DNA of 45,078 nt from Alphaproteobacteria bacterium (GCA_024402815.1 JAKSTB010000002.1:1-45078), one strand, 5' to 3'. Counted from the first letter of the stretch, positions 4,078 through 26,013 are shown. Translations and numbers: made by a program. Notes: generated from the letters alone by a model not told the origin.

Positions 4078-5727
4078 TCAACCGTTTTGTATATGTTTGC
4101 CATTAAATAACAATTTCAGCATTTCTTTCTTTCTGCGTTCATCTGCGCCTTTCTCGTTTACGTTTTCTATACCCTGACGGAATTTTGATTCAACTTGTGC
4201 TTCTCTATCTTTGGATTGCACATTGATTATTCCCTGCCTTAATTGTTCTGCCTTGTTGTTGATTGGTGTTTTAACCTCTGGTGATTTGTGTGGCAATTCC
4301 ACCCTGACACCATCTCTTATTTCAGGATCTTTCCAATAAAATTCAGCCATATCATGCCTAAAATCTTTTCTGTATTTGTCTTCTATATCACTGTATCCTA
4401 ATTCTTGATCCAGTATTTCTTCCCATTGTTTTTTATTATATTTTTTTCTGGTTTCCACAGATAACCCATATTTTTCTTTGAATGCTTCTATGCGTTCACG
4501 TCCCTGGGATTCTAAATCAGCATAACTTAGCGGTTGTCTTTTTTGTTCTTGTGGTTGTTGACCTTGGTTCACAATGTTTTCTGGTTCACGAATACCCAGG
4601 GCTTCTCTCATTTTGCTTAAAGCATAATCCCTATATCCAACCTGGTTTCCTGCCAGCACCATCATACCATTAACCGTCTTTAATTTTCTTGCTACATCTT
4701 CTGGAACGTTTTTACTAGATACAACTTCTTTGATTGCATCTGTTAATTTTTTCCAGCTTTCTTCAACCTCTGGGCTTTTAACAGAACCTGCTTCTTTATA
4801 TGCTTTTTCATAACCATCTATTAACAAAGCAATCTTTTTGGATTGATCATCTGTCAGGTTTTTATCTTCCTTGTTTTGACCCGCCATCGCATTTTTTATA
4901 CCGCCAAAAATGTCATTTGGTTTGGCTTGCTTTGGGTCTTGCGCTTCTGGTTTTTGTTCATCTTGTTGTTGCGGTTTTTTCTTACCAAGATTGAAAAAAT
5001 CAAACCGAGGATCTGATTTCACCTGTTCAGGTTCTTCTTCGTCTTTCTGTTTTTCGGTTTGCTGTACGGTTTTATCTTTGTCTTTGATATTTGACATATC
5101 ATTATTCAACACAACCATAAACTCTTGGATTTTATCTTGATGTGTATTGTCTCTAAAGACATTGTATTTCATGTCTTTTAATATATCGACCAATCTTTCA
5201 GCCGTTTCCGCAGTTATTTCTTTATCTGCAACACCTTTCTGGATTGCTTGACCGACTGCACACAGCAAATCCCCAGATTCCATCGCGCCATTTTGTTTAT
5301 ACGCTTCTTCATAGTTTTTCATAAACTGTTTCACATTCTGTAAAACCAGTTTAGAATCTTCTACGTTATCGTTCAAACCAACCAAACTTAAACTTTGTGA
5401 TAAATCAAAAGCCTGGGTTGTTTTATTATCATATTGTTCATATTGTTCTGTTTGACGATTACAAATTTCTTTCAATCTTTCTATTCTGTCAACAGTATAA
5501 TCATATCCAGCTCTGCCACTGTCAATTTCATGAATTACATCAATATATTCCTGGGCCATCTTAGGCGAAATCAATTTAGCATCCAGAGCATCCTGGATTG
5601 CAAAATTAAGTTTTCTGCGGATATTGGTCACTTCTTCACCAAACAAAAAACCTTCATCTTCATATGCGCCACGAAATTCTTTAATCAAGTAACCAATTTC
5701 ATCCAATATATCTAATGTTGTGTCCAC
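4078..5727 (-). CDS. hypothetical charged repeat protein (549 aa), candidate secreted or effector protein
   Basis: GTG start preceded by AAGGGGGA, 21 nt after the gyrB stop. Three about 52-aa internal repeats, a Q/K/E/P-rich linker, and a C-terminal duplicated RQGI-x-NV motif. Confidence 0.65.
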   Translation of the reverse strand: MDTTLDILDEIGYLIKEFRGAYEDEGFLFGEEVTNIRRKLNFAIQDALDAKLISPKMAQEYIDVIHEIDSGRAGYDYTVDRIERLKEICNRQTEQYEQYDNKTTQAFDLSQSLSLVGLNDNVEDSKLVLQNVKQFMKNYEEAYKQNGAMESGDLLCAVGQAIQKGVADKEITAETAERLVDILKDMKYNVFRDNTHQDKIQEFMVVLNNDMSNIKDKDKTVQQTEKQKDEEEPEQVKSDPRFDFFNLGKKKPQQQDEQKPEAQDPKQAKPNDIFGGIKNAMAGQNKEDKNLTDDQSKKIALLIDGYEKAYKEAGSVKSPEVEESWKKLTDAIKEVVSSKNVPEDVARKLKTVNGMMVLAGNQVGYRDYALSKMREALGIREPENIVNQGQQPQEQKRQPLSYADLESQGRERIEAFKEKYGLSVETRKKYNKKQWEEILDQELGYSDIEDKYRKDFRHDMAEFYWKDPEIRDGVRVELPHKSPEVKTPINNKAEQLRQGIINVQSKDREAQVESKFRQGIENVNEKGADERRKKEMLKLLFNGKHIQNG

Positions 5728-8303: not shown

Positions 8304-8873
8304 ATGAAGTTTAAATTGTTATATTATGGTGATATTTTAACAAACCCAAAAAAACGGGCTCAACATATTGCAGATATTCGTATGCAATTTCATCCCCAGC
8401 TTAAAAAACTAATGAATTTCCAGCCCTGGAATAACCTTACTAATTTCATGATGCCGTCCCCGACAAAAAGTCCTATTATAACCCGGCACATTGGGGGCAT
8501 TGATTGGAACCCTGTTATTACGCCAAATTTGAAAATGATTGCAGAATTGGATATTTTGTTGATGCATCCTGAAATTGTCGGTGTTCCGCGTTCTGATATT
8601 GATAACCGCGTTAAAACCATATTAGATGGCCTGCGTTGCCCACAAAACGAACACGAAATAGGACAAAATACACCACGCGATATTGGGCCTATTTATACAT
8701 TGTTGGACGATGACCATTTGGTAACAAAATTAACAGTCAACACCAGCCATCTTTTGATGGAAAACATATTCCCTTGTGATTTGAAAAGAAGCCAGGATTC
8801 AGTGTTTATGTTAATAGACGTCAATGTCCGCGTAACCGAAGGGACATTGGAAAATTTACCATTTATGGCATAA
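8304..8873 (+). CDS. hypothetical protein, possibly RusA-like endonuclease fold
   Basis: PRSDIDNRVKTILDGL ... LLDDDHLV resembles the RusA D-x-D-N-x-x-K-x-x-x-D-x-L ... DD core. It is the only plus-strand gene inside a 15 kb minus-strand block. Confidence 0.35.
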   Translation: MKFKLLYYGDILTNPKKRAQHIADIRMQFHPQLKKLMNFQPWNNLTNFMMPSPTKSPIITRHIGGIDWNPVITPNLKMIAELDILLMHPEIVGVPRSDIDNRVKTILDGLRCPQNEHEIGQNTPRDIGPIYTLLDDDHLVTKLTVNTSHLLMENIFPCDLKRSQDSVFMLIDVNVRVTEGTLENLPFMA

Positions 8874-8889
8874 AGAAAAAATATATAAA

Positions 8890-8915
8890 AAAATACCGGT
8901 AAATACCGGTATTTT
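8890..8915. terminator. bidirectional hairpin terminator (AAAATACCGG / CCGGTATTTT, 6-nt loop)
   Basis: 10-bp stem 8890-8899 / 8906-8915 flanked by A and T runs, between convergent stops at 8873 and 8919. Confidence 0.7.
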
Positions 8916-8918
8916 CTA

Positions 8919-9989
8919 TTAGGTTAATGCGGCGGTTATTTGCTCTTGCATCTGGAAAGTTCCAAATACAACCCAACCTATCGCACCAGAAACCAACCCC
9001 ATACCCACACTGTTCAAAGTGCTGGATAAATTTTCTATACGGCGCACAGATTCATTCATATATTCTATGGCGATTTTATTTAAATTCTTTGCAAAATCGT
9101 TCATATCGGAATAAATGACCAAATCCCCCACAATTTCAGCATTTGGAAAATTCTTGCCTGTTGCAGCCAACGCATTACCTAAATTTTCACCATTTGTAAT
9201 ATACAATAATGTTTCTTCCAAAATACTGGATAAATAACGATTTGAATTATTCGCCAACAAACGCATCGCTTGGGGTACAGATGTATCTGCAGCAACCATT
9301 GCCGCCAATGACATCAACCAGCTGACCGATAATTGTAATTTATAAATACTCCATGGTGGAAAATCATCAAATTTTGCACGTAATTTTCCAGTCCATATAG
9401 GCAAAGATACCACGATCAATATAATTAACACCACCAACGCCGCACAAATAATATACAAATATTTATTCATAAAATCAGATGCCCAAACCAAAGATGCCGC
9501 CGTTCCACGCCAAACAATATCACCACCTGCGGCTTCTGTTAAAGGTGGCACCAAATATATACCCACCATGGCAATAATACCTATGGTCATAGCAAACAAA
9601 AACAATGGGTATGCAAAAGCAGATGATACCGCCCTTTTAATACGGTTCACACCATTAACCACTGTCGATATGTTTTCCAAAGAAACCAACAAATCAGATA
9701 AATTTCCAGACATTAACAATAATGTTTCTTCAGGTGGAACCCAACCACGTGTTGCTTCGGAAAAACTAAGTCCACATTCCAAACCTTTTTGCACCTCACG
9801 CATATATATAGCAAAAGGTTCATTTGGTTTTTTACCGTTTTCAGATTCTATCATTTCAATACGATGTAAGGCATCCATCAAAGAAAAATTATTACGCAAC
9901 AGAGATGCCAATTTACTACTGATTGACATACGTTTATCTGTATCCATTCTGCAAGAAAGTCTTGCGTACCAATACTCTAATTTGTTCAT
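8919..9989 (-). CDS. GspF/PilC-family inner-membrane platform protein (type IVb PilR/TcpE/BfpE-like)
   Basis: Two repeated cytoplasmic helical domains and three long hydrophobic segments. Sits directly after the GspE-type ATPase. The ATG at 9989 is 2 nt after the ATPase stop. Alternative starts are ATG 10004 and TTG 10028. Confidence 0.75.
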   Translation of the reverse strand: MNKLEYWYARLSCRMDTDKRMSISSKLASLLRNNFSLMDALHRIEMIESENGKKPNEPFAIYMREVQKGLECGLSFSEATRGWVPPEETLLLMSGNLSDLLVSLENISTVVNGVNRIKRAVSSAFAYPLFLFAMTIGIIAMVGIYLVPPLTEAAGGDIVWRGTAASLVWASDFMNKYLYIICAALVVLIILIVVSLPIWTGKLRAKFDDFPPWSIYKLQLSVSWLMSLAAMVAADTSVPQAMRLLANNSNRYLSSILEETLLYITNGENLGNALAATGKNFPNAEIVGDLVIYSDMNDFAKNLNKIAIEYMNESVRRIENLSSTLNSVGMGLVSGAIGWVVFGTFQMQEQITAALT

Positions 9990-9991
9990 GA

Positions 9992-11620
9992 TTAATACAC
10001 CCATGGTCTGTCGAGTAATCCAACCCAACGTTCTACTTCATCAACACCGATAATTCCGCGCAACATTAATTCTTCAGCAGCTTCTTTTAATGTTCGCCCA
10101 TCTAATTTTTCCAACCAGAATCTCAAAGCTGCATCTGTTTCACCAGCCAATGCCAAACTTAAAAATTCACTGTTAGTCAAAATAATTTCGCCTGCTTTTA
10201 TACGTCCAACCGAACCCGTTCCTTTACAATGTTCACAACCCGGTCCACGAATAAATACCTGTTGTAATCCCAAATCACCAAACGCTTCTTTAACTCTGTG
10301 GTATGCAGGATTATCAGCCTTGTCAATCAACTGTTCACGACAATATGGACACAACTTTTTAAACAAACGCATCGAAACCAAACCACGCATCATGGTTTCA
10401 TCTTTCAATTTAAATGCTTCAACTCCCATATCTAACAAACGGGTCAATGCACCCATAGCGGAATTCGCGTGCAAAGTTGTCCATACGTTATGTCCAGACA
10501 AAGCGCCCTTGACGGTTAATTGCGCCGCAGACAAAGTTCTGATTTCACCGACCATCAATGTATCAGGGTCACTACGCAAAGCCGCAGCCAAAGCTTCTGT
10601 AAATTTTTCTTCACGTTGTTCTTCGTTACCAGCATTAACCACCGGCATTTGATGCGCGCCAAAAATTTTCTGTTCCGCAGGATCTTCCACAGTAATAAGG
10701 TTGATTTCATATCTGTGTTCTTTCAACATCAAAGCCATATTACGAACCAATGTCGTTGATTTACCAGATGATGTTGGTCCAGCCACCACAACCAACCCTG
10801 TTGGCGCGGAACGTAAACGTGATAATAATTTTTGCTCGTAATCACCAAATTCTTGTTCTGTTTTAATACCTTCGCTTGGGTTATCATACAGAAGACGCAT
10901 AACCACATATTGACTACCAAACGCAATCGGGTTAAATTGCATACGAATACCCAATACAGATGCAGGTAAATACAAATCTTTTGTACCACGCAACGGTGTT
11001 CGTCCGTCTTTCTGGGCGGCCTGGTATTCGTTTTGTGCATAACTGGAATTAGATATATCCGCAGATGCGAATGCGGCACGAACAAATGCTTCACCCCATT
11101 GTGAATTATATTCCAAAATTGGTTGCATACTTCCGTCCATACGGAAATAAATCGTGGTCTGATCAGCAACTTCAATGTGAATATCTGATACCTTTTGTGC
11201 AGCAGCACGCGCAATAACATCGACGAAATCTTTCTGCATCTGGTTATCAAAATCAACACGTTGATGTAATTTACCACCAACCCTTTCTTCGTTTGTTTTG
11301 TAAATACTTGAAATCAAACCCAAATCTGCATAGAAAGGTTTTTTTACAACCGCATGATTTCGATTTAACCAATCCATAAATGCCAGAACACGTCCGTCAT
11401 ATTTGTGTGTTCTGGATATAATCAATTCACCACCAGAAAAATACGCAATCAAACTCTGGGTGTCTTTTGGCAAAGCATATTCACCACCAAACGATGTCAA
11501 CAGTTTGTTGTTATCTGAAAACAAGTATGTCAAAATATCCTTGTTGCCAGCAGTTTCCAATCCTGACGGCACAGAATGCTTTTTTGATATATCTTCAACA
11601 GTTGTGTCTTGTTTTGCCAT
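9992..11620 (-). CDS. GspE/PilB-family secretion ATPase (type IVb PilQ/TcpT/BfpD-like)
   Basis: Walker A GPTSSGKST, Walker B/Asp box LMVGEIR, His box TTLHANS, tetracysteine CPYC...CEHC. The ATG at 11620 is 1 nt after the upstream stop. Confidence 0.85.
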   Translation of the reverse strand: MAKQDTTVEDISKKHSVPSGLETAGNKDILTYLFSDNNKLLTSFGGEYALPKDTQSLIAYFSGGELIISRTHKYDGRVLAFMDWLNRNHAVVKKPFYADLGLISSIYKTNEERVGGKLHQRVDFDNQMQKDFVDVIARAAAQKVSDIHIEVADQTTIYFRMDGSMQPILEYNSQWGEAFVRAAFASADISNSSYAQNEYQAAQKDGRTPLRGTKDLYLPASVLGIRMQFNPIAFGSQYVVMRLLYDNPSEGIKTEQEFGDYEQKLLSRLRSAPTGLVVVAGPTSSGKSTTLVRNMALMLKEHRYEINLITVEDPAEQKIFGAHQMPVVNAGNEEQREEKFTEALAAALRSDPDTLMVGEIRTLSAAQLTVKGALSGHNVWTTLHANSAMGALTRLLDMGVEAFKLKDETMMRGLVSMRLFKKLCPYCREQLIDKADNPAYHRVKEAFGDLGLQQVFIRGPGCEHCKGTGSVGRIKAGEIILTNSEFLSLALAGETDAALRFWLEKLDGRTLKEAAEELMLRGIIGVDEVERWVGLLDRPWVY

Positions 11621-11621
11621 T

Positions 11622-12287
11622 TTATTTGCCACCAATATTTAAACTTTCAGAAACACCATCTTTTTCAAATATAATTCCATCGTCCAAAGAAATTGATTTG
11701 ATTGTATAACCGTCTAATTTTTTACCAACGGCTATGCGTTTGTTTTGACCTGTGGATATTTCTTCTACTGTTGCCTGTAATTGATTACCAACACCAATAA
11801 CATTTAACAATTTGTATTTTGCTTTGAATACAGGTTTTACTTCCTCTTTCACAGGCGTTGCCACAACTTCGGTTTCTTTTTCTTCCATTTCTTCCATTTG
11901 TCTTTTCAGTTTTTCTGTTTGAGCTTCCAATTCTGCTTTGGCTGCTTCTAATTCTTGCTGTTGCTGTTCAGCTTTGCCTGAAATATTATCCAATTCGATT
12001 TGCATTTTTATTTTTTCAGCATTTAATTTATCCAATTCCAAATCCATTTGGGCATGTTCTTTTTCTAATTGCATCAACACTTTTTCTTGTTCCAAAGTTG
12101 TGATTTTTTCAAACAAAGAACCTTCTACTTGGTATTCTTCCAAAGCAGTTGTTGAAGAATCTTCTGCTGGGGCTTCTGTTTCTTCGATTATTTCTTCCTC
12201 TTCTATAATTTCTTCTGCAAATGCATATGTATTCCCACCCAGGAATCCAACGCACAAACATAAAACAAATAATAATCTTTTAATCAT
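11622..12287 (-). CDS. secreted coiled-coil protein with PilP-like C-terminal domain
   Basis: Signal peptide ending AFA, acidic EEIIEEEE tract, long coiled coil. The C-terminal beta-rich segment (YKLLNVIGVGNQLQATVEE...VGKKLDGYTIKSI) resembles PilP/GspC HR domains. Confidence 0.4.
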   Translation of the reverse strand: MIKRLLFVLCLCVGFLGGNTYAFAEEIIEEEEIIEETEAPAEDSSTTALEEYQVEGSLFEKITTLEQEKVLMQLEKEHAQMDLELDKLNAEKIKMQIELDNISGKAEQQQQELEAAKAELEAQTEKLKRQMEEMEEKETEVVATPVKEEVKPVFKAKYKLLNVIGVGNQLQATVEEISTGQNKRIAVGKKLDGYTIKSISLDDGIIFEKDGVSESLNIGGK

Positions 12288-12299
12288 CTTGTACCCCTT

Positions 12300-13565
12300 T
12301 TATTTCGTGTAAATACTGATATTATATTTCCAAGTTCGTGAATTATTTGACCAATCAACAGCTCTTAAATAAACACCTTGAAAACCATCAAACATCAACA
12401 TATATTCCTGTGGTATCAGTTTAGATGAAGCGTTTATTTGTATAACGTTTATTGTATCTTTTTCTACACCCTTTTTTATAATTTCTGTACCAGGTTTTAT
12501 TTCCGCTGTCATACCGTATTTTTGATATTTAGAAATTAAATCACGCATAACAGTTGCCTGGTCACGACTATCGATTGATTTGTGTGTTCTTAATTCAGGC
12601 AATTTAACCAGAACCCTGACTTCGTTATTTGATAACTGTTCCACCTGGGCACCTGGCATCAATTCCCCGCCCACAGCATAAAAATCATTTATAGTTCCGT
12701 ATTCGCGTCTAAAAGTTGCAGACACATTATCTTGATTACATTCAACCGCATTTGGTACCCATCCCAACACTGGTTGCATCACAAAACCGATGGCTTTATA
12801 ACACAATTTTGCCTTGTCCATAACATATGGCAATTTGTTGTATGGGTAAAACCTTTCCTGTTTTTGTTGTTGTTGCTTTTTATCAATCTTAAACTGTTCG
12901 TCTAATTCTTTATTTTTGATTTCTATCTGACGTTGATATTCCGCTATGGCCTCTGGACTAAGTTCCGGTGTTTTTGGTGGTGTAATTTTATGCAAATCAG
13001 ACAATTTAGAAATTAAAAACACCGCCAACAAAAATCCCAACACTATTACCGCAGAAGGAATCAAAGTTTTAAAAACATTTACCTGTTGTAATTTTGCCCC
13101 AACAACACCGACGACTAATTTTGATAAATCTCTTTCTTGGGATCTTGGCATACCCCATTCTGATGGTGCGAACAAAGCACTCCAATCCGGCATTGCAGAT
13201 AAATCTACATATGCTTTGCGTGCCTCGTTTTCAGTTTCCAGTAAAATATCGCGGATAATCATACCGTTACGAACAGCCAACAAATAAAAATTATTTCCGG
13301 CCCTGAAAACACCTAAAAACGAAACAAATTCAGACAAAGAATTCATTATTTCTGCGGCGATACTGGGGATACCAACACGCAGACCTTCATGGGGGGTTGC
13401 CAAACCAACCATGGCTTTATATTCCACGTACAAAGTGTATTTTACTTTGGTATTTTTTTCCAGTTGGTTTGCATAAATATTTACAGCATTACCCACAGCG
13501 ACAGGTTGCCAGAACAACCCTGCCGCATACTTTTTACGATTAACGGTTATGACTTGTTTTATCAA
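12300..13565 (-). CDS. bitopic membrane protein, PilO(type IVb, PilO2)-like pilus accessory protein
   Basis: TTG start after a purine-rich AAGAGAGAGAA tract. N-terminal RKKYAAGLFWQP motif, a single central TM segment (IPSAVIVLGFLLAVFLI), and size and gene order matching IncI-type pilO-pilP-pilQ-pilR. Confidence 0.4.
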   Translation of the reverse strand: MIKQVITVNRKKYAAGLFWQPVAVGNAVNIYANQLEKNTKVKYTLYVEYKAMVGLATPHEGLRVGIPSIAAEIMNSLSEFVSFLGVFRAGNNFYLLAVRNGMIIRDILLETENEARKAYVDLSAMPDWSALFAPSEWGMPRSQERDLSKLVVGVVGAKLQQVNVFKTLIPSAVIVLGFLLAVFLISKLSDLHKITPPKTPELSPEAIAEYQRQIEIKNKELDEQFKIDKKQQQQKQERFYPYNKLPYVMDKAKLCYKAIGFVMQPVLGWVPNAVECNQDNVSATFRREYGTINDFYAVGGELMPGAQVEQLSNNEVRVLVKLPELRTHKSIDSRDQATVMRDLISKYQKYGMTAEIKPGTEIIKKGVEKDTINVIQINASSKLIPQEYMLMFDGFQGVYLRAVDWSNNSRTWKYNISIYTK

Positions 13566-13584: not shown

Positions 13585-13593
13585 ATTATAACA
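13585..13593 (-). promoter_or_regulatory. extended -10 element (TGTTATAAT on the minus strand) upstream of the pilO-like gene
   Basis: Reverse complement of 13585-13593 reads TGTTATAAT, about 20 nt upstream of the TTG start. It lies downstream of the lipoprotein-gene terminator. Confidence 0.4.
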
Positions 13594-13654: not shown

Positions 13655-13969
13655 TCATTTTTTGCAATTATACACTTTGGCCTTTATTTTGTATGTATTT
13701 CTGGGGCCTAAAATTGCACCTATGTTTTTCACAGTATCTTCTGTGTAAATGAAATAAGAATCGCCCAATTTGTTTTCTTCAGCAATTCGTTTTTCTATGA
13801 AATTATAGGCATCGTCTATGTCATAACTTGAAACATTTGTATCAATCATATACAAATATTCACAATTTTTTGGTTCTGCATTTAATTTAACCAAAGCGGG
13901 TTCTTTTGTGCCGGATTCCGCGCACCCAGCCACAGTCAACAAACCGAATATTAACATCGTTTTTTTCAT
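13655..13969 (-). CDS. small lipoprotein (DUF4156-like)
   Basis: Lipobox LTVAGC, AAGGAG SD, two further Cys residues with spacing typical of about 100-aa DUF4156 lipoproteins. Confidence 0.55.
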   Translation of the reverse strand: MKKTMLIFGLLTVAGCAESGTKEPALVKLNAEPKNCEYLYMIDTNVSSYDIDDAYNFIEKRIAEENKLGDSYFIYTEDTVKNIGAILGPRNTYKIKAKVYNCKK

Positions 13970-16699: not shown

Positions 16700-16770
<71 letters not shown>

Positions 16771-16776
<6 letters not shown>

Positions 16777-16816
16777 GTTAAATGAAAAACGCACCCCACC
16801 GGGTGCGTTTTTTGTT
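16771..16816 (+). repeat. direct repeat, left copy (last 6 nt of tRNA-fMet plus its terminator)
   Basis: caaccagttaaatgaaaaacgcacc-ccaccg-ggtgcgttttttgtt. It is 40/46 identical to 18152-18197, and all 6 differences lie in the hairpin loop. Confidence 0.85.
16785..16813 (+). terminator. intrinsic terminator of tRNA-fMet
   Basis: Stem AAAAACGCACCC / GGGTGCGTTTTT with loop CACC and a T-run. Confidence 0.8.
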
Positions 16817-16855
16817 AGATTCCAAATATCTGCACAAAGTTCGAAAGTTAAAATC

Positions 16856-16884
16856 AAAAAAGTGGCGATTTTTCGCCACTTTTG
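16856..16884. terminator. hairpin terminator downstream of the 373-aa gene
   Basis: AAAAGTGGCG / CGCCACTTTT stem with loop ATTTTT, 10 nt after the stop at 16894. Confidence 0.7.
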
Positions 16885-16893
16885 AACTCGTGT

Positions 16894-18015
16894 TTAAATT
16901 TCGCGTTTCATTTTTGAGATAATATCACTAGCCATCTCTTTATAATCAGGTGTTTGTTTCTTCTGTTTCCATTTTGAACTGATACTTGTATATAGTCTCG
17001 TATTTGTATCAGTAAAATCCAAAGCAGGATAACCTTTTATTCTATCCTGAAACATTTTAAAAAATGTTTTTTCTTGTGCTTCTTGAACAAAAGTTTCTGC
17101 TAATTCATCCCAATCTTTACGTTCTGCAGTGTTTTTTGCGGGGATATTATTACCAAAAAATTTATTTTCAAATTGTTCTAATGATGTACCATAATAATAA
17201 TGACCATATAACGCAACATACAGTTTATGTGTAATATATGTTAATAATTTTTTACCAGAAATAGTCAATGCAGGTACTCGGTAGTTCATAAAAAATTGTG
17301 TTATCCCTGTTTGCTCTAATTTTTTAGATTTCGCCACTGTTTTTTCAAAAGTTAATAAAATATTGAGAAAAGGACTAATTCCAACAATACCTATATTTTT
17401 CATTGGATAAATACAATGAGTTTTACCAATTCCAAATCGTCCATACACAGTTGGCTCAAATGCATATTCTTCTTTAAATTGGTCTGTATAAACTGGTGGA
17501 ATGTATATTTTTGACCCAAATTTTTCTTGTATAATCTTTGCTAATTTTATTGTGTCATCATAACTACCCGTATATATTGTCATTCCTTTACCACCATCAC
17601 CACCATCCAAAATTTTATGATGCACACCAAATTCTATTAAAAAATCTGATATTTCTTTGGTTACAGGATGTTTTCTATTTGGAACAACGTCCAAGTGTAA
17701 TTTCCAAGCACAACTACTATCCCATTCATCACTGGGTAAATCTCTTTTATGAAATAATTTACTTTGTTCTGGTGGTAATCCACCGCCTTGCCAAGATTCT
17801 TTTTTATAACCTGTTTTTATTTCATGTACTGAAAACCTCAAATTTTCGTCTTTTTTTGCTCTTTTCATATATTCTTGATTTATCTTCTCTCTTTGAACAG
17901 ATAAAGGTGTGGTCGCTTCATACAAAGACAATGTTTTTTCCAATTTGACAAGGTCTTTTAATGAAAGTTTTGAAAGGTCTGTATTTTCAAAAGACTTCAA
18001 AAAATCTTGTAACAT
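16894..18015 (-). CDS. hypothetical protein (373 aa), effector-like; weak resemblance to the phosphothreonine-lyase catalytic core
   Basis: ATG preceded by AGGAG. Extended -10 TGGTATAAT (reverse complement of 18040-18048). Motif string WKLHLDV ... HHKILDG ... GKGMTIYTG parallels DKFHISV ... KWKVTD ... QFTLY of OspF/SpvC. Confidence 0.6.
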   Translation of the reverse strand: MLQDFLKSFENTDLSKLSLKDLVKLEKTLSLYEATTPLSVQREKINQEYMKRAKKDENLRFSVHEIKTGYKKESWQGGGLPPEQSKLFHKRDLPSDEWDSSCAWKLHLDVVPNRKHPVTKEISDFLIEFGVHHKILDGGDGGKGMTIYTGSYDDTIKLAKIIQEKFGSKIYIPPVYTDQFKEEYAFEPTVYGRFGIGKTHCIYPMKNIGIVGISPFLNILLTFEKTVAKSKKLEQTGITQFFMNYRVPALTISGKKLLTYITHKLYVALYGHYYYGTSLEQFENKFFGNNIPAKNTAERKDWDELAETFVQEAQEKTFFKMFQDRIKGYPALDFTDTNTRLYTSISSKWKQKKQTPDYKEMASDIISKMKREI

Positions 18016-18151
18016 TATAATCTCCTATTATATTGTAAAATTATACCATAAATGTCATTCAATGTAAATTCAGCGATGTTAATTCGTTTTTTAACTCATC
18101 AATCTCACGCCCGATTTCCAACAATTCGGCTCGAGAACTGCACACACTGCA

Positions 18152-18197
18152 CAACCAGTTAAATGAAAAACGCACCAAAAATGGTGCGTTTTTTGTT
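18152..18197 (+). repeat. direct repeat, right copy
   Basis: caaccagttaaatgaaaaacgcacc-aaaaat-ggtgcgttttttgtt. Retains a terminator-like hairpin. Confidence 0.85.
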
Positions 18198-18248
18198 TAA
18201 TTTATTTCGGGATTTGAATCAACGAGACAAGGTGGTTCACAACAAGGA

Positions 18249-18410
18249 TTAGACGGGTGGAAACACGCCGGTTTGCCAAAGGCAAAAATCCGCAGTTGCA
18301 GAATTATTATACAAAACAAAACCACAATTACCGCATTCCCATTTGCGATTATTTGTATTGGTGATGTTTTTGCTGGCACAATTCGGACAAAATTTGAAAT
18401 CGTTTTTCAT
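18249..18410 (-). pseudogene. truncated NUDIX-hydrolase-like gene (N-terminal zinc ribbon only)
   Basis: MKNDFKFCPNCASK...WECGNCGFVLYNN is the CxxC...CxxC ribbon seen at the N-terminus of some NUDIX hydrolases. The frame stops after about 53 codons with no Nudix box. Confidence 0.45.
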
Positions 18411-18485
18411 GATTAAACCCTTTGATACTGTTATAATTTTAATTTGTTTCAACATCAAGCATAAATAAAATCCTGTGTCAAAATG

Positions 18486-18513
18486 TTGACATTTTATATT
18501 TTTGTGTTATATT
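18486..18513 (+). promoter_or_regulatory. promoter of the 277-aa gene (predicts a leaderless mRNA)
   Basis: TTGACA (18486-18491), 16-nt spacer, TG-n-TATATT (18505-18513). The ATG at 18520 lies 7 nt after the -10 element. Confidence 0.45.
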
Positions 18514-18519
18514 TGAGAC

Positions 18520-19353
18520 ATGAATATAGTTTATGACACACCTTTGCCAAATATGAAAGATGCCTTGTCTTGTTACAAAGACATTAGTGGGTATTGTGGT
18601 TTCACGATTTATAATAAATATTATCCTTGTCTTACAACAACGAACGAATACAACCAAATATTACAAACCAAAAATTATGTTATACCAAAATCAAAGGTTT
18701 TAACCGTATCAGGTTCTGGGGAACAACCTTTGTTTTTTAAATTGTTTGGGGCAGAACATATAACTACTTTTGATATTTCATACAATTCTTATTTAATGAC
18801 AAAACTTAAAACTATTGCCCTGCAAACATTTGACCAGGCGAAAGATTTCAACAAATTCTTGGATTGTTTGTATGATGAACATCATTTGTATTTTTTAAAA
18901 AATGATTACCAAAACATCATTCAAAAACTCAACAAACCCGAACAAAACTATCTTTGCAACGCACCTGAAAAAATAGATATATTTTATACAAACAGATGGT
19001 GCGATCTTTACAGTTTTACTGATTCAGATTATAAAAAATTAAGAGATTCAATTAAATCACCATTTCCTTTTATTTGGACAGACATTAAAAATCTGGATGA
19101 AAGGTTAGGTAATGCTAAATTTGATATTATATATTATTCCAATATTTGCGATTTTTTGTATTCGTACACGGTTGTTGATATATTGAAAAAAACCCAGAAA
19201 CATTTAAACCCAAACGGTAAAATATGTTTTGTCACAAATGATGACGACAAAGAATCTTTATTAGACAATATCAATCAAGCCATGTCATACGATGTGATAC
19301 ATAAAATGCCTGAACGTTTAAATTTTTATCTGGTTGTTGTTCAAACCAGATAG
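18520..19353 (+). CDS. DUF3419/BtaA-C-terminal-like SAM-binding protein
   Basis: VLTVSGSGEQPL...TFDIS (motif I-like) followed by YLMTKLKTIAL, as in DUF3419 proteins. Confidence 0.4.
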   Translation: MNIVYDTPLPNMKDALSCYKDISGYCGFTIYNKYYPCLTTTNEYNQILQTKNYVIPKSKVLTVSGSGEQPLFFKLFGAEHITTFDISYNSYLMTKLKTIALQTFDQAKDFNKFLDCLYDEHHLYFLKNDYQNIIQKLNKPEQNYLCNAPEKIDIFYTNRWCDLYSFTDSDYKKLRDSIKSPFPFIWTDIKNLDERLGNAKFDIIYYSNICDFLYSYTVVDILKKTQKHLNPNGKICFVTNDDDKESLLDNINQAMSYDVIHKMPERLNFYLVVVQTR

Positions 19354-19363
19354 AAAAGTCAGT

Positions 19364-19915
19364 TTATTTTTGTGGAATATCTGTTTTATTTTGAACTTCT
19401 ATACCTGATTCAAAATCTTCAACAAATTTCCAAACACCTTTATCCAATGTAAAATGAAAACATTGGCAATTTTTTATACCCCCAACTTTTAATCCACACG
19501 CCCAACACAAAGCGCGCGTTACACCGCCATGCGATGCAATTACAATATTTTTATGTTTGTCTTTATCAACAATATCGTCCAAACATTCTTTGACACGATT
19601 GAAATTATCCATTATGTGTTTTTGTTTTTCATCATTTTTATCATACCAAAAACCAAAAGCAGTTTCGGTTAAACGTTCATCTGTTATAATTTTAATATCT
19701 GGGTTACCAACCGCTATTTTTGCCGTATCCACCGCGCGTTTAAGTGGCGATGAATATGCAATATCTATGTTTTTATCAGATAAAAATTGATTTAATTTTT
19801 TTGCCTGTTCTTCACCAGATTTTGTTAACCATACATCCGTGCCCGTGCCATATCTTTCGCCCGCTTCGTTTTCATTAGTTTGCCCATGTCTAAAAAAATA
19901 AAAATGTCGTATCAT
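19364..19915 (-). CDS. histidine phosphatase (phosphoglycerate mutase-like) family protein
   Basis: FFRHGQT catalytic motif and ASHGG. Confidence 0.85.
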   Translation of the reverse strand: MIRHFYFFRHGQTNENEAGERYGTGTDVWLTKSGEEQAKKLNQFLSDKNIDIAYSSPLKRAVDTAKIAVGNPDIKIITDERLTETAFGFWYDKNDEKQKHIMDNFNRVKECLDDIVDKDKHKNIVIASHGGVTRALCWACGLKVGGIKNCQCFHFTLDKGVWKFVEDFESGIEVQNKTDIPQK

Positions 19916-19965
19916 GATAATCTCTGCCTTTGGTTTATAATTTACTATTATAGCATAAAATTTAT

Positions 19966-19991
19966 AAAAAGCGGGGTTATTGCCCCGCTTT
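19966..19991 (-). terminator. intrinsic terminator after the 504-aa gene
   Basis: AAAGCGGGG / CCCCGCTTT stem with loop TTATTG and a T-run on the minus strand. Confidence 0.75.
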
Positions 19992-19993
19992 AT

Positions 19994-21508
19994 TTATAAT
20001 CCCAAACCTAATATTTCTTGTAATTTTTTATCTATCAGATTTTGATTTGTTGGTACAGGGATATCTTTGACACCTGTTTTTCTCAATTCAGATAAAACAT
20101 CTGTAACATCTCTGTATTTTTCCAAATCTTGTTCTGTAAATGTTCTGCGTTTACTTGTTTCACGTAACAATTCATAATATTTATTATATTTTTTTATTGT
20201 TTCGCCATGTTCATTCAAAACACCCATACAAACAATAACAACGCCATTTGGGCCGTCACCCACAGTCCAAACCAAACGTTTTCTGTCGTTGTTTGTATTG
20301 CTGTCAACACTTTGCACCAATGTACAGCCATTTTCTTTTTCAACGGTTTGAACATTTGTCAAAATACCATCTTTTAATACCCACACAGGCCCCTGGTAAT
20401 TCACAAAATCAGCCGGATCTATATTGATTTTATTAATAGCATCCAACACAGATCTTTGACGACCAATACTTATTTGTTTTAATTGGTTATTGGTCATGTA
20501 TTTCGTTATTTCAACATGTTTATATTCCTGGGTGGTTTTGACAACTTTATCAGGTTTAACCTGTTTGTTTTGTGGTTGTTTTTGTTTTTCTTCTTCTTTC
20601 TTTTGGGTTTCTTGATTTTGCAAAGCCAAAATTTCCTGACGAATTAAATTCCAATCAGATGTGTCCGCACAAGCCACAGGAACACCGTCTTCACGCAATT
20701 TAACAGTTTTGTTTATACCGTTTCTGCGTTGATCAGACAAAATTATTCGAATATATCTGTTCAAATCGTCATTTGATAAATCAAGTGCAAATATTTCAGC
20801 ATCTTGTTTGCACAAATCTAAAATATCTCTTTTGTCGATATGTTGCCCAGATATCTTTTTATCCATGACTTCCGGTTTAATCGCGATTTCTTTTGTTTTT
20901 GGATTTGCAGATGTTGGTTTCTGTCTTTCTGGTATAATTTTATGCAAAAAGTATTCCGCCACAGAATTTTGTAAATTTATATTACCTTTTCTGCTGTAAA
21001 CCTTTACATGTTTATACTTTGACATAAATTTCAACGCAGATTCCAAATTATTTGGATCTTTCATTGCTTGTTTAGAAATCAAGTCGGGTTGAACAATCAA
21101 TTCTTTAATTTTTTGTGGTAATTTATCCAATAAAACATCCAAACTTCTGATACTGTATGAACAATCCATTTTTTCCGCAAACATAGGCAAAGTTGTATCT
21201 TCGGTTATATAATCTTTACCGCAATTACTACAATCAAAAATACCATCTGTAACCAAGAAAGGAAATATTTTAATATGTTTTGATGCAACAAAATCGCCTT
21301 TGAGCGCAACATGTTTAAAAAATGGCATCTGGGCACCCTTTTGCGGAATAAAACCACGAATGTTCACACTTTCATAGATTATATAAAATCCGAATTCTTC
21401 GGTTATTTTTGGTAATTGCAATGGATTCAAACGCGCCAATGATATTGGTGTTATATTTTCATCATCATTAAAAACAACTTTTTCTACCAAAACTTTCTTT
21501 TGAGACAT
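19994..21508 (-). CDS. hypothetical protein (504 aa)
   Basis: ATG preceded by AAGAGG. Central K/Q/E-rich linker. No confident motif. Confidence 0.6.
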   Translation of the reverse strand: MSQKKVLVEKVVFNDDENITPISLARLNPLQLPKITEEFGFYIIYESVNIRGFIPQKGAQMPFFKHVALKGDFVASKHIKIFPFLVTDGIFDCSNCGKDYITEDTTLPMFAEKMDCSYSIRSLDVLLDKLPQKIKELIVQPDLISKQAMKDPNNLESALKFMSKYKHVKVYSRKGNINLQNSVAEYFLHKIIPERQKPTSANPKTKEIAIKPEVMDKKISGQHIDKRDILDLCKQDAEIFALDLSNDDLNRYIRIILSDQRRNGINKTVKLREDGVPVACADTSDWNLIRQEILALQNQETQKKEEEKQKQPQNKQVKPDKVVKTTQEYKHVEITKYMTNNQLKQISIGRQRSVLDAINKINIDPADFVNYQGPVWVLKDGILTNVQTVEKENGCTLVQSVDSNTNNDRKRLVWTVGDGPNGVVIVCMGVLNEHGETIKKYNKYYELLRETSKRRTFTEQDLEKYRDVTDVLSELRKTGVKDIPVPTNQNLIDKKLQEILGLGL

Positions 21509-21598
21509 TTTTGACCTCTTGTTTTATATTATTTTAATACAAAAATATAAATTGTCAATATATTCATAAAAAAACATATTATAAAAGAATTAAAAAAG

Positions 21599-21607
21599 TG
21601 ATATAAT
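21599..21607 (+). promoter_or_regulatory. extended -10 (TGATATAAT) upstream of lrgA
   Basis: TG-n-TATAAT, 22 nt before the ATG. GGGAGAGAG SD follows. Confidence 0.45.
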
Positions 21608-21629
21608 ACATTAAAACAGCGGGAGAGAG

Positions 21630-21989
21630 ATGAAATACCTTTTTCAATTTATGATTATTCTGTTTTTTGTATTTCTTGGGGAAATATGTGAACATTTTAT
21701 ACCCTTGCCTATCGCGGGCAGTATTTATGGATTGTTATTATTGTTTGTTGCCCTGTGTTTACACATTGTTAAATTGGAATGGGTTTCAGATATTGCAGAT
21801 TGGTTTCACAGTGTAATGGCTTTGTTTTTTATTGCGCCTGCTGCCGCGGTTATAGACATATGGGGCGATATATCTGATATTTGGTATTATCTGGTGTTCT
21901 TGTTGGTTGCAACATATGTTGTAAGTATGATTGCAACTGGAAAAACCGCTGATTATTTTATAAGGACGAACAAGGATAAGAAAAAATGA
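21630..21989 (+). CDS. lrgA: CidA/LrgA family holin-like protein
   Basis: 119 aa with four hydrophobic helices and an ATGA overlap with lrgB. Confidence 0.85.
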   Translation: MKYLFQFMIILFFVFLGEICEHFIPLPIAGSIYGLLLLFVALCLHIVKLEWVSDIADWFHSVMALFFIAPAAAVIDIWGDISDIWYYLVFLLVATYVVSMIATGKTADYFIRTNKDKKK

Positions 21990-22684
21990 TAGATTTGATT
22001 GCAAATTCTTCATATTTTGGTGCAACCATAACTATACTTATGTTTATGATTGCTTCGTTCATAAATAAAAAATGGCAAAATCCATTTACAACACCTTTGT
22101 TCTTGGCAACCTTTTTTGTCATCGCTGTGTTGTTATCATTTAATATTCCATATGCTATGTATAACGCATCTGCAAAATATTTAACTTATTTTTTGGTACC
22201 TGTAACCGTATGTTTTGCAGTCCCTATGTATCGACAATTACCCCTTTTGAAAAAGCATATTTTTTCAATATTATTCGCAATGTTTATCGGTGTAATGGCA
22301 TCTGTATTATCGGTATGTATAATTGTTATTGTATTGGGTTTATCAGACATTATTGCGCGTTCTTTGGTATCTATATCTGTAACAACAGCTTTGGCTATTG
22401 GCATCACACAAAAATTGGGTGGTATGGTTTCTTTGACTGTATCTGCGGTTATTATCACAGGTATTTTGGGCGCATCGGTCAGCGACAAATTATGTAAATG
22501 GGCACGCATAAAAAATCCAATTTCACGCGGTTTGGCTATTGGAAATGCTGCACATGCAGCCGGAACAGTAAAAGCCATGGAAATGGGAAAAATAGAAGGT
22601 TCTTTCAGTTCTTTAGCAATAGTATTATCTGGTTTAATGACCGCAGTTATTGCACCAATCGTAATATGGTTTTGTTTCGGTTAA
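21986..22684 (+). CDS. lrgB: LrgB family protein
   Basis: 232-aa polytopic protein. Motifs SITTALAIGITQKLGG and RGLAIGNAAHAAGT are typical of LrgB. Confidence 0.88.
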   Translation: MIDLIANSSYFGATITILMFMIASFINKKWQNPFTTPLFLATFFVIAVLLSFNIPYAMYNASAKYLTYFLVPVTVCFAVPMYRQLPLLKKHIFSILFAMFIGVMASVLSVCIIVIVLGLSDIIARSLVSISVTTALAIGITQKLGGMVSLTVSAVIITGILGASVSDKLCKWARIKNPISRGLAIGNAAHAAGTVKAMEMGKIEGSFSSLAIVLSGLMTAVIAPIVIWFCFG

Positions 22685-22697
22685 AAAAAGAATAAAA

Positions 22698-22985
22698 ATG
22701 TTATCACATGCTTTTAATTTTGAAGGTGGGGAATTTTTGTCAAAAATGGGGGCTTCGTGGTTTGTATCATATTTATATTATAAAAAAATAGATAAAACAC
22801 ATACAAATTGGACTCTTGTTGGAACATCAACCAGAATACCTGTTTTTAATAAAACAGGTAACTATCATGATTATTGGTTAAGAAAAATTTTAGAAATGGA
22901 TGATAATAAATTAAATACAAATAAAATAAAATTGTCTGCACCAGAAATTAAAAATATGGCTAAAAATTTATTAAAATTATTTTAA
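22698..22985 (+). CDS. hypothetical protein (95 aa)
   Basis: ORF only. No SD. The 3' end overlaps the convergent 204-aa gene by 9 nt. Confidence 0.3.
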   Translation: MLSHAFNFEGGEFLSKMGASWFVSYLYYKKIDKTHTNWTLVGTSTRIPVFNKTGNYHDYWLRKILEMDDNKLNTNKIKLSAPEIKNMAKNLLKLF

Positions 22986-26012: not shown

Positions 26013-26013
26013 T

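What the first reader, a model, noticed from the sequence alone, without database searches (positions are those of the whole stretch)
8919..13565. Orphan four-gene type IVb-pilus-like module (PilO/PilP/ATPase/platform) without pilin, secretin or peptidase
The gene order and sizes (421, 221, 542 and about 356 aa) mirror pilO-pilP-pilQ-pilR of IncI/ICE-type thin-pilus clusters. The genes are translationally coupled, with 1-12 nt gaps. The ATPase and GspF-family platform are clear. The PilO-like and PilP-like calls are weaker. The module has its own promoter and ends at a bidirectional terminator. No class-III signal peptide ORF, secretin or prepilin peptidase is present anywhere in the 45 kb. 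The cluster sits among core genes (lpxC/lpxK, gyrB) rather than on an obvious mobile element. It could be a decaying remnant, a split system, or a reduced motor used for something other than a classical pilus.
Basis: partly seen in the sequence, partly recalled or inferred. Interest (0 to 1): 0.65.

Follow-up and report, generated by a model that had tools for sequence, protein, structure and literature searches.

The report
Split type IVb pilus motor core
The four genes are the intact, strongly conserved inner-membrane core of a type IVb pilus machine in tiny-genome gut bacteria (Candidatus Enterousia); in related genomes of this group the pilin gene lies about 150 kb away, so the module is part of a scattered system and not an orphan or a relic.

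Summary
Window 13565-8919 (minus strand) carries pilO2 (421 aa), pilP (221 aa), a BfpD-like extension ATPase (542 aa) and a GspF-family platform (356 aa). The gaps are 12, 1 and 2 nt, with a promoter-like extended -10 upstream and a terminator hairpin downstream. Nothing else in the 45 kb is a pilin, secretin or prepilin peptidase.

The source is a gut/rumen alphaproteobacterium of the Candidatus Enterousia / Rs-D84 clade (genomes under 1 Mb). All 80 related species genomes examined keep the same block between lpxC and gyrB. dN/dS is 0.01-0.24, like the housekeeping neighbours, so it is not a remnant.

The closest ATPases outside the clade (50-57% identity) sit in complete R64-type clusters: TcpQ-PilN-PilO2-PilP-ATPase-platform-pilins-PilT. 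A DNA motif from those pilins found a 154-aa prepilin (ESG|RSMIEML...) in Enterousia-clade genomes. It lies between uvrC and a pseudouridine synthase gene, about 150 kb from the module on one 697-kb contig. Its model resembles the type IVb pilins TcpA and CofA.

"Split system" is therefore supported for the pilin. A PilN secretin motif scan found none in Enterousia, and the peptidase could not be tested. A secretin-less reduced machine remains open.

The parts
13585..13593 (-). promoter-like extended -10 (TGtTATAAT). A purine-rich RBS follows at 13576-13566.
   Evidence: Read directly. It lies downstream of the hairpin that ends the lpxC-lipoprotein unit. A consensus match only; the generic scan found no enrichment over shuffles.
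12300..13565 (-). pilO2: a bitopic alignment protein. Cytoplasmic N-domain carries the GLFWQP motif, the TM helix is at about 164-191, and a conserved periplasmic domain has two invariant Cys.
   Evidence: PF06864 at 53.4 bits. PilO2Bp (PDB 4bz0) at E 0.008. phmmer against plasmid PilO2 proteins reaches 1e-17 to 1e-22. Conservation map; AF2 topology. NCBI names its 88%-identical homologue 'type 4b pilus protein PilO2'.
11622..12287 (-). pilP: signal peptide, a conserved coiled coil (about 51-110) and a conserved C-terminal beta domain (about 160-215).
   Evidence: TIGR03021 at 30.6 bits, below its cut-off of 34.65. Sister-clade PilP HMM at E 8e-16. hhalign 98.3% over the C-terminal 68 columns. 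Weak GspC HR-domain match, 7oio, E 0.18.
9992..11620 (-). pilQ-type (BfpD-like) extension ATPase. Walker A at 281, Walker B at 351, His box at 377, and Zn-site cysteines CPYC 424 and CEHC 462.
   Evidence: PF00437 at 217 bits. Best PDB match is BfpD 8dze, E 1.4e-74 over residues 27-530, against GspE at 2e-43. Motif positions. 76-96% identical across 80 species. dN/dS 0.01-0.07, with 0.28 in one near-identical pair.
8919..9989 (-). pilR-type platform protein (GspF/PilC family)
   Evidence: PF00482 in two stretches. phmmer against the plasmid PilR reaches 6.5e-57 for clade orthologues. PilC 3jc8 at 5e-8 and TcpE 4hhx at 0.1.
8888..8917 (.). hairpin terminator shared with the convergent ORF 8304-8873
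   Evidence: 13-bp stem, 4-nt loop, followed by a T run.
13655..13969 (-). 104-aa lipoprotein gene that always sits upstream of pilO2, in the position pilN holds elsewhere. Whether it belongs to the system is not shown.
   Evidence: Syntenic in 79 related loci. Separated from pilO2 by the hairpin at 13655-13628. No Pfam or NCBIfam hit. hhalign against PilN (16%) and TcpQ (55%) is not significant.

Best explanation
The four genes form one operon encoding the inner-membrane core of a type IVb (R64 / PilO2-type) filament assembly machine. The machine is in use, and its remaining parts are encoded elsewhere on the chromosome.

Shown here:
- The ATPase is a BfpD/PilQ-type extension ATPase with all catalytic motifs and the Zn-binding cysteines.
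- The platform is a PilR/GspF protein.
- PilO2 is a bitopic protein with a cytoplasmic domain, one TM helix and a conserved periplasmic domain.
- PilP is a periplasmic protein whose C-terminal beta domain is conserved.
- Genomes of the same clade encode a single, highly conserved 154-aa prepilin (leader M-x-x-E-S-G, mature N-terminus RSMIEMLGVLAIMG, Glu at +5, two invariant Cys). It is homologous to the pilins that lie next to the same four genes in the sister clade, and its model is TcpA/CofA-like.

Inferred:
- A prepilin peptidase, not found here, cleaves after the Gly.
- The hexameric ATPase, held at the membrane by the PilO2 N-domain, drives the platform to lift processed pilin out of the inner membrane and add it to the base of a filament.
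- The periplasmic domains of PilO2 and PilP link the motor to whatever lets the filament reach or cross the outer membrane.

Most likely use, by analogy only: contact with or adhesion to the partner cells on which these metabolically dependent bacteria are proposed to live. The linked VirB-type type IV secretion genes may act alongside it.
For: - Family and order: searches place the four proteins in the PilO2, PilP, BfpD/PilQ and PilR families. The order is the same as in the annotated P. aeruginosa plasmid cluster TcpQ-PilN-PilO2-PilP-ATPase-T2SSF-pilin-PilT-PilV.
- Function retained: the block is present, intact and syntenic in 80 species genomes. NG86 dN/dS is 0.01-0.07 for the ATPase (0.28 in one near-identical pair), 0.04-0.11 for PilR, 0.07-0.20 for PilO2 (0.31 in that pair) and up to 0.24 for PilP, against 0.01-0.05 for gyrB and 0.05-0.16 for lpxC. 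The periplasmic parts of PilO2 and PilP carry invariant residues.
- Ancestry: the closest ATPases outside the clade (P0121 and P0122, 54% identity) lie in complete clusters with TcpQ, a PF00263 secretin, one to four PF08805 pilins and PilT.
- Pilin elsewhere: a genome-collection scan for EML[GA]VLA[IV][IV]G hit 154-aa prepilins (158 aa on JAFVFD010000005.1) in MAGs that also carry the module: CAMWON01, CANQCM01, and the same contig JAFVFD010000005.1. On the 697,490-bp contig the pilin is at about 68.5 kb and the module at about 216-238 kb.
- Pilin properties: 941 homologues, of which nearly all of the best 120 are 154 aa long and 72-94% identical. Pilin dN/dS is 0.06-0.15. The sister-pilin HMM hits it at 1e-19 to 1e-26. 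The AF2 model (pLDDT 82) matches the TcpA and ETEC type IVb filament subunits with probability 1.0.
Against: - The pilin was shown in other species of the clade, not in the window's own genome, which could not be read.
- No secretin, TcpQ, PilT or A24 peptidase was found in any Enterousia DNA available: the 45-kb window, the 86 related loci and the pilin loci.
- A collection scan for a PilN motif that is invariant in the sister clade returned about 115 PilN genes and none from Enterousia.
- PilP is below the curated NCBIfam cut-off.
- The full-length PilO2 model gave no significant fold match.
- There are no expression or imaging data, and the biological role is by analogy only.
Confidence: 0.78

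Rival explanations
1. Reduced, secretin-less and retraction-less variant. The lineage kept only PilO2-PilP-ATPase-platform plus one pilin. It builds a short periplasmic or otherwise non-classical filament (an endopilus or pseudopilus) used for secretion, uptake or envelope contact, not a surface thin pilus.
For: - The sister clade has TcpQ-PilN directly upstream, and many members have pilins and PilT downstream. In Enterousia exactly these flanking genes are gone, replaced by lpxC plus a lipoprotein gene upstream and by a terminator downstream.
- PilN, TcpQ and PilT profiles find nothing in the Enterousia DNA at hand beyond the paralogous match of the PilT profile to the module's own ATPase.
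- The PilN motif scan gave 0 Enterousia rows of 120. The pilin scan of the same collection gave about 8 of 120.
- The pilin is single-copy, short (154 aa) and unusually conserved: 83% mean column identity, against 42% in the variable part of sister pilins. That fits a filament not exposed to diversifying selection. Public annotation calls it a T2SS pseudopilin.
Against: - Only about 10% of any Enterousia genome could be inspected.
- The motif scan needs an exact 12-residue pattern, and plasmid PilN proteins already differ at one of its positions.
- PilP, the usual secretin adaptor, is retained with a conserved C-terminal domain under purifying selection.
- The pilin model resembles true type IVb pilins, not pseudopilins.
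Confidence: 0.3
2. Decaying remnant of an ancestral pilus cluster, with no current function.
For: The flanking cluster genes (TcpQ, PilN, pilins, PilT) are missing from the locus.
Against: All four ORFs are intact in all 80 species genomes wherever the contig reaches them. The ATPase is 76-96% identical across them, more conserved than lpxC or lpxK. dN/dS is 0.01-0.24, and all catalytic motifs are present.
Confidence: 0.01
3. Accessory module of the neighbouring VirB-type type IV secretion system, not an independent pilus machine.
For: - VirB3-VirB4 and a conserved secreted 204-aa protein lie directly upstream of the DUF374-lpxK-lpxC-lipoprotein-pilO2 block in at least 14 relatives, and 10 kb away in the window.
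- In the sister clade, VirB2-like, VirB3 and VirB4 genes lie next to the pilus cluster.
- A Cupriavidus plasmid has TcpQ-PilN-PilO2-PilP-like followed directly by VirB3-VirB4-TrbJ-TrbL-TrbG.
Against: The module has its own dedicated extension ATPase, platform and pilin, which are enough to define a type IV filament machine. Linkage of a type IVb pilus with a conjugation-type T4SS is well known from IncI plasmids and ICEs, where the two machines are separate. No physical or regulatory coupling was tested.
Confidence: 0.05
4. Conjugative thin pilus carried on a mobile element (plasmid or ICE), present by recent transfer.
For: The closest characterised relatives are on IncI-type plasmids and ICEs.
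Against: The position between lpxC and gyrB is fixed in 80 species. No integrase, relaxase or repeats are present, GC content matches the surroundings, and divergence tracks that of the housekeeping genes.
Confidence: 0.02

Closest known systems
R64 / IncI1 thin pilus and its ICE and plasmid relatives (PAPI-1/pKLC102-type pil clusters; B. pseudomallei Tfp7): the 'Tfpb R64 variant' with PilO2
   Same: Same four families in the same order (PilO2-PilP-ATPase-platform), tightly packed. The pilin is of type IVb fold. The sister clade has the full TcpQ-PilN-...-pilin-PilT layout.
   Different: - Chromosomal and vertically inherited in a reduced-genome clade.
- The pilin gene is separated by about 150 kb and single-copy.
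- No PilN, TcpQ, PilT, PilV/shufflon, PilL/M or dedicated peptidase was found near the module.
- Sequence identity to plasmid PilO2 is only about 25%.
- The linked T4SS genes are VirB-type; R64 itself carries an IncI-type transfer system (background knowledge).
Bundle-forming pilus of enteropathogenic E. coli (BfpC-BfpD-BfpE)
   Same: BfpD is the best solved-structure match of the ATPase, over nearly its full length (E 1.4e-74). BfpC belongs to the same PF06864 superfamily as PilO2 (PMC3984277).
   Different: BFP has its own secretin BfpB, peptidase BfpP, retraction ATPase BfpF and bundlin, all in one operon. No PilP-family gene sits in that position.
Complete T4bP clusters of the sister gut Alphaproteobacteria (CAG-495, 'Candidatus Scatocola', UBA3650 and similar MAGs)
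   Same: Closest homologues: ATPase 50-57%, PilR 38-46%, PilO2 21-36% identity. Same pilin leader and N-terminus. Same linkage to VirB3/VirB4.
   Different: The sister clade keeps an unknown 538-aa gene, TcpQ and PilN upstream. Many members keep one to four tandem pilin genes with variable C-termini plus PilT downstream. Their ATPases often carry long N-terminal extensions (up to 977 aa). These clusters are themselves undescribed in the literature searched.
Type II secretion system / competence pseudopilus cores (GspE-GspF-GspL/M-GspC)
   Same: Same functional layout: ATPase, platform, bitopic actin-like clamp, and a secretin adaptor with an HR-like domain. Public pipelines label the pilin a T2SS protein.
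   Different: The ATPase scores far better against BfpD than against GspE. PilO2 and PilP are the T4b-specific families. The pilin model matches TcpA/CofA, not GspG.

Membership tests
R64-type (PilO2) type IVb pilus system | PilO2 protein (PF06864): cytoplasmic actin-like domain, one TM helix, periplasmic domain | tested here: met
   PF06864 at 53.4 bits against a cut-off of 26.7. The GLFWQP motif aligns to PilO2Bp 4bz0. TM helix at 164-191. The actin-like fold of the N-domain itself was not confirmed: low pLDDT and no fold hit.
R64-type (PilO2) type IVb pilus system | PilP-family periplasmic protein encoded directly after PilO2 | tested here: inconclusive
   TIGR03021 at 30.6 bits, below the curated 34.65. 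It is homologous to the PilP of complete sister clusters (HMM E 8e-16; hhalign 98%). phmmer with a plasmid PilP gave no hit.
R64-type (PilO2) type IVb pilus system | PilQ/BfpD-type extension ATPase with Walker A/B, His box and tetracysteine site | tested here: met
R64-type (PilO2) type IVb pilus system | PilR/GspF-family platform protein | tested here: met
   PF00482 in two stretches. Plasmid PilR reaches 6.5e-57 against clade orthologues.
R64-type (PilO2) type IVb pilus system | Gene order pilO-pilP-pilQ-pilR in one tightly packed operon | tested here: met
   Gaps of 12, 1 and 2 nt. Same order as in L087.
R64-type (PilO2) type IVb pilus system | Type IVb prepilin with class III signal peptide | tested here: met
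   Not in the window. Present elsewhere in genomes of the clade that carry the module. Homologous to PF08805-positive sister pilins. TcpA/CofA-like model. Not verified for the window's own genome.
R64-type (PilO2) type IVb pilus system | PilN lipoprotein secretin (with its TcpQ partner) | tested here: not met
   Absent from the window, the 86 syntenic loci and the pilin loci by phmmer and by sister-clade HMMs. 0 of 120 rows in the motif scan of the genome collection belonged to Enterousia. Whole genomes could not be scanned, so a divergent or unrelated secretin is not excluded.
R64-type (PilO2) type IVb pilus system | Prepilin peptidase (A24 family) | not testable with these tools
   None in the DNA at hand, by Pfam scans of the window and by a GxGDxK-plus-TM heuristic on all loci. 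It is not in the sister clusters either. No way to search whole Enterousia genomes by family.
R64-type (PilO2) type IVb pilus system | Retraction ATPase PilT and tip adhesin PilV/shufflon (present in many members, not all) | tested here: not met
   No hit in the Enterousia DNA at hand. PilT is present in 28 of the 80 sister loci.
Type II secretion system | GspE-type ATPase, GspL/GspM, GspC, GspD and GspG-type pseudopilins | tested here: not met
   The TIGR02533 GspE score of 220 bits is far below its cut-off of 630. BfpD is a much better match than GspE. No GspD found. The pilin model matches type IVb pilins.

The most novel reading that the evidence does not exclude
Enterousia and the Rs-D84 order run a minimal type IVb filament machine of five genes (PilO2, PilP, ATPase, platform and one invariant-length pilin). 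In a bacterium with an outer membrane it has lost the PilN/TcpQ secretin pair and the retraction ATPase. Even so, it is among the most strongly conserved functions of a genome under 1 Mb. This would point to a non-classical, possibly essential role in the partner-dependent lifestyle, such as an endopilus for uptake or secretion, or a filament that uses another outer-membrane conduit such as the linked VirB system.
Probability: 0.3. Interest if true: 0.7.

Novelty: new variant of a known kind. Interest (0 to 1): 0.45.

Why it matters
Rs-D84 / Enterousia bacteria are widespread in rumen, horse, chicken, termite and human guts. Their genomes are under 1 Mb, and they lack most biosynthesis and standard transporters. 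They are proposed to live off other cells by unknown means (PMC12306168). That paper reports no pili for this lineage.

This report shows that every genome examined keeps a type IVb filament motor under selection as strong as on gyrB. It also shows a dedicated conserved pilin and linked VirB genes. Together these give a concrete, testable candidate for the cell-contact apparatus of the group.

The comparison with the sister clade also gives a natural before-and-after series for how a contiguous conjugative-type pilus cluster is dispersed and trimmed during genome reduction. If the secretin is really gone, it defines a minimal type IVb machine.

Tried and rejected
- Exact look-up of the 421-aa protein found nothing. 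The 221-aa protein worked.
- Extending the window through its edge genes failed. Only contigs of about 1 kb came back, plus an NCBI assembly (GCA_024500545.1) whose file is too large to read.
- Supplementary files of the only genomic paper on the clade are not held, and the 2023 Enterousia paper is not held.
- A class III signal-peptide regex on the window and the 86 syntenic loci gave only spurious hits.
- phmmer with plasmid PilN, TcpQ, PilS, PilV and PilP found nothing in Enterousia DNA.
It is evidence against a canonical PilN, not proof.
- A heuristic search for A24 peptidases (GxGDxK plus TM segments) found none in any locus.
- hhalign of the upstream 104-aa lipoprotein against PilN, TcpQ and the 538-aa sister protein was not significant, so it is not a recognisable PilN remnant.
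- The AF2 model of PilO2 had a poorly predicted N-domain, and Foldseek gave only chance-level hits.
- My guess that the convergent 189-aa ORF is RusA-like (motif DIDNRVKTILDGL) got no support from Pfam, NCBIfam or the PDB and is dropped.

Full report
**What is in the window.** On the minus strand, four ORFs run head to tail:
- 13565-12300: 421 aa, TTG start.
- 12287-11622: 221 aa.
- 11620-9992: 542 aa.
- 9989-8919: 356 aa.

The gaps are 12, 1 and 2 nt. Gene calls on six independent public contigs give the same sizes.

**Family assignments.**
- The 421-aa protein passes Pfam's curated threshold for PF06864 PAP_PilO: 53.4 bits against 26.7. Its N-terminus, with the GLFWQP motif, aligns to the crystallised N-domain of B. 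pseudomallei PilO2.
- The 221-aa protein scores 30.6 bits on TIGR03021 pilP_fam, just under the cut-off of 34.65.
- The 542-aa protein is a T2SSE ATPase at 217 bits. Its best solved relative, over nearly the full length, is the type IVb ATPase BfpD (E 1.4e-74, against 2e-43 for GspE). It has Walker A, Walker B, the His box and both CxxC pairs.
- The 356-aa protein has two T2SSF domains.

**Operon boundaries.** A 13-bp-stem hairpin with a T run (8917-8888) closes the operon against a convergent ORF. Upstream, a hairpin (13655-13628) ends the lpxC-lipoprotein unit. It is followed by TGtTATAAT (13593-13585) and a purine-rich RBS.

**The rest of the 45 kb.** The other large ORFs were Pfam-scanned here or have Pfam hits on the public gene calls. 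They include a nitroreductase, PagL, UDG, gyrB, lpxC, lpxK, a DUF374 protein, LrgAB, VirB3/VirB4, SufBD, YchF, DnaG, TopA, RodA, PBP2, MreC, L20 and PheST, plus several hypotheticals; the 1014-aa ORF was read as IleRS by eye. There is no secretin, A24 peptidase or pilin. A six-frame class III signal-peptide search is negative.

**Whose genome it is.** The ATPase retrieves 237 loci from the species-level genome collection, of which 80 were kept. All are gut or rumen MAGs named Alphaproteobacteria or Candidatus Enterousia. The genus belongs to GTDB order Rs-D84, whose members have genomes under about 1 Mb. They lack most biosynthesis and standard transporters and are proposed to depend on partner cells (PMC12306168). 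That paper reports type IV pili only for an unrelated verrucomicrobial lineage. No paper in the library connects Rs-D84 or RF32 with pili.

**Not a remnant and not mobile.**
- Wherever the contigs extend, all 80 genomes show one arrangement: DUF374-lpxK-lpxC-104-aa lipoprotein-pilO2-pilP-ATPase-platform-(convergent 189-aa ORF)-gyrB-h225-UDG-PagL. One genome has an inversion just beyond the platform gene.
- Identity to the window is 76-96% for the ATPase, 56-96% for the platform, 43-95% for PilP and 39-88% for PilO2. For comparison it is 80-98% for gyrB and 51-96% for lpxC.
- Nei-Gojobori dN/dS in ten pairs is 0.01-0.07 for the ATPase (0.28 in one near-identical pair), 0.04-0.11 for the platform, 0.07-0.20 for PilO2 (0.31 in that pair) and up to 0.24 for PilP. 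This is the range of gyrB, lpxC and lpxK.
- The periplasmic domain of PilO2 (two invariant Cys and many invariant aromatic residues), the coiled coil of PilP and the C-terminal beta domain of PilP are all conserved.
- GC content is unremarkable.

**Where the module comes from.** A search of 1.8 billion representative proteins shows a gap after the Enterousia ATPases. The next full-length relatives are 54% identical. Their genomic loci, 80 more gut alphaproteobacterial MAGs including CAG:495 and 'Candidatus Scatocola', hold complete R64-type clusters:
- an unknown 538-aa gene;
- TcpQ (PF10671);
- a PilN secretin (PF00263);
- PilO2, PilP, the ATPase and the platform;
- in many, one to four tandem pilin genes (PF08805 PilS / Bundlin);
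- a PilT-like ATPase.

VirB2-like, VirB3 and VirB4 genes often lie divergently upstream. An annotated P. aeruginosa conjugative plasmid has the same order. The Enterousia operon is thus the middle of this cluster. What is missing is exactly what flanks it elsewhere. A profile of the sister PilP hits every Enterousia 221-aa protein (E down to 8e-16; hhalign 98%).

**The pilin is elsewhere.** Sister-clade pilins share an almost invariant leader and N-terminus..SG|RSMVEMLGVLAIIGVLSVGG. A scan of the genome collection for DNA encoding EML[GA]VLA[IV][IV]G returned 120 rows, its limit. About eight of them are a distinct prepilin, mostly 154 aa: M-x-x-ESG|RSMIEMLGVLAIMGVITVGAIG.
- Three of these lie in assemblies that also carry the module. 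CAMWON01 is the MAG of locus L064. CANQCM01 is the MAG of L059. JAFVFD010000005.1 is the very contig of L076.
- A fourth is labelled Candidatus Enterousia sp.
- The gene always sits between a divergent uvrC and a pseudouridine synthase gene. An asmA-like gene, a diadenylate cyclase gene and dnaN follow.
- On the 697,490-bp contig, whose module lies at 216-238 kb, the pilin is at about 68.5 kb.
- The family has 941 members in the protein collection. Nearly all of the best 120 are 154 aa long and 72-94% identical. Some are annotated as 'type II secretion system protein'.
- It has two invariant Cys, and its dN/dS is 0.06-0.15.
- The sister-pilin HMM hits it at 1e-19 to 1e-26.
- Its AlphaFold model (pLDDT 82) matches TcpA in the toxin-coregulated pilus, the ETEC type IVb pilus subunit and CofA. 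No pseudopilin or type IVa pilin appears among the top hits.
- No second prepilin lies near it.

The system is therefore split, at least for the pilin.

**What was not found.**
- The sister PilN alignment contains the invariant stretch TT[LM]NNK.AP[IV]Q[VI]. Related forms occur in Burkholderiales and Methylococcales PilN.
- A scan for TT[LMIF]NN...P[IVM]Q[IVM] again filled 120 rows. About 115 were PilN genes, nearly all in a TcpQ-PilN-PilO2 context. None came from an Enterousia assembly or stood alone. The pilin scan of the same collection yielded about eight Enterousia rows, so a canonical PilN in Enterousia should have shown up.
- The test still needs an exact motif, and plasmid PilN proteins already deviate at one position. 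It is therefore evidence, not proof.
- Profiles of PilN, TcpQ, the 538-aa protein and VirB2 find nothing in the Enterousia DNA available. The PilT profile matches only the module's own ATPase, a paralogous hit.
- The 104-aa lipoprotein in PilN's position is not recognisably related to PilN or TcpQ.
- No A24 peptidase was seen anywhere, including the sister clusters.
- The tools give only 10 kb either side of a hit, so roughly 90% of any Enterousia genome remained unseen.

**Mechanism.** By homology with BFP, TCP and R64 systems (established knowledge of these families):
- The hexameric ATPase is held at the membrane by the cytoplasmic domain of PilO2.
- It drives the platform protein to extract peptidase-processed pilin from the inner membrane and polymerise it.
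- The periplasmic domains of PilO2 and PilP connect to the outer-membrane component.

Shown here are the parts list, its integrity, the selection on it and the existence of a matching pilin. Inferred are the processing, the polymerisation, the outer-membrane route and the role. I think the role is contact with partner cells, possibly together with the linked VirB system.

**Two versions remain open.**
- A conventional but scattered pilus, with a divergent secretin elsewhere.
- A trimmed machine without secretin or retraction ATPase. The single, short, unusually conserved pilin and the negative PilN scan point that way. The retention of PilP argues against it.

**Verdict.** I file this as a new variant of the R64/PilO2-type type IVb pilus system, found in a lineage where no pilus has been described. 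Interest is moderate. It would be higher if complete-genome scans confirm the absence of a secretin.

Noticed in passing
window 23598-26310 (minus strand); also loci L025, L030, L038-L042, L047, L053, L058, L066, L078, L079, L084: VirB3 (98 aa) and VirB4 (804 aa) genes are followed by a conserved secreted 204-aa protein (22977-23591). In many relatives this trio lies directly upstream of the DUF374-lpxK-lpxC-pil block. In the sister clade, VirB2-like (TrbC family, multi-copy), VirB3 and VirB4 genes lie next to the complete pilus cluster. The T4SS-T4bP linkage therefore looks ancestral.
   Followed up: partly
L088 (Cupriavidus basilensis plasmid pRK1-3, NZ_CP062807, 110290-123026): TcpQ-PilN-PilO2-PilP-like genes run straight into VirB3-VirB4-...-TrbJ-TrbL-...-TrbG, with no pilus ATPase, platform or pilin between them. 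This looks like a secretin/PilO2/PilP sub-complex embedded in a P-type T4SS operon.
   Followed up: no
window 4078-5727 (minus strand): A 549-aa K/E/Q-rich ORF with no Pfam hit lies between gyrB and the 93-aa ORF. It is absent from the closest relatives (L001, L007), where those two genes are adjacent. It is an insertion specific to this strain.
   Followed up: partly
window about 16700-22985: A 6.3-kb block holds tRNA-Met, a 373-aa and a 504-aa hypothetical, a methyltransferase-like ORF, a histidine phosphatase and LrgA/LrgB. It separates the VirB4-h204 genes from DUF374-lpxK. In many relatives this block is missing and the two parts abut.
   Followed up: partly
window 8304-8873 (plus strand): A convergent 189-aa ORF is as conserved as the ATPase (74-99% identity; dN/dS 0.01-0.08) and always follows the platform gene. 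It has no Pfam, NCBIfam or PDB match. A RusA-like motif I thought I saw was not supported.
   Followed up: partly
L058 (OZ246409.1) and L182 (CAZJGX010000004.1): Records titled 'uncultured Muribaculaceae bacterium' carry the Enterousia synteny block (L058) and the Enterousia-type pilin (L182). One is a complete 716,531-bp chromosome. The taxonomic labels look wrong.
   Followed up: no
sister-clade loci L092-L171, e.g. L098 8642-11575 and L148 13544-15477: Sister-clade pilus ATPases carry N-terminal extensions (up to 977 aa in total). Many of these genomes have one to four tandem pilin genes that are near-identical in the first 35 residues (88%) but only 42% identical in the rest. Several very large pilin-like proteins (up to 1667 aa) share the same N-terminus.
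   Followed up: no
whole window: Exact-protein look-ups place window genes in NCBI assembly GCA_024500545.1, whose file is 'too large' to read. This suggests the 45-kb contig sits in a very large assembly (a metagenome or a host genome), not in a binned MAG.
   Followed up: no
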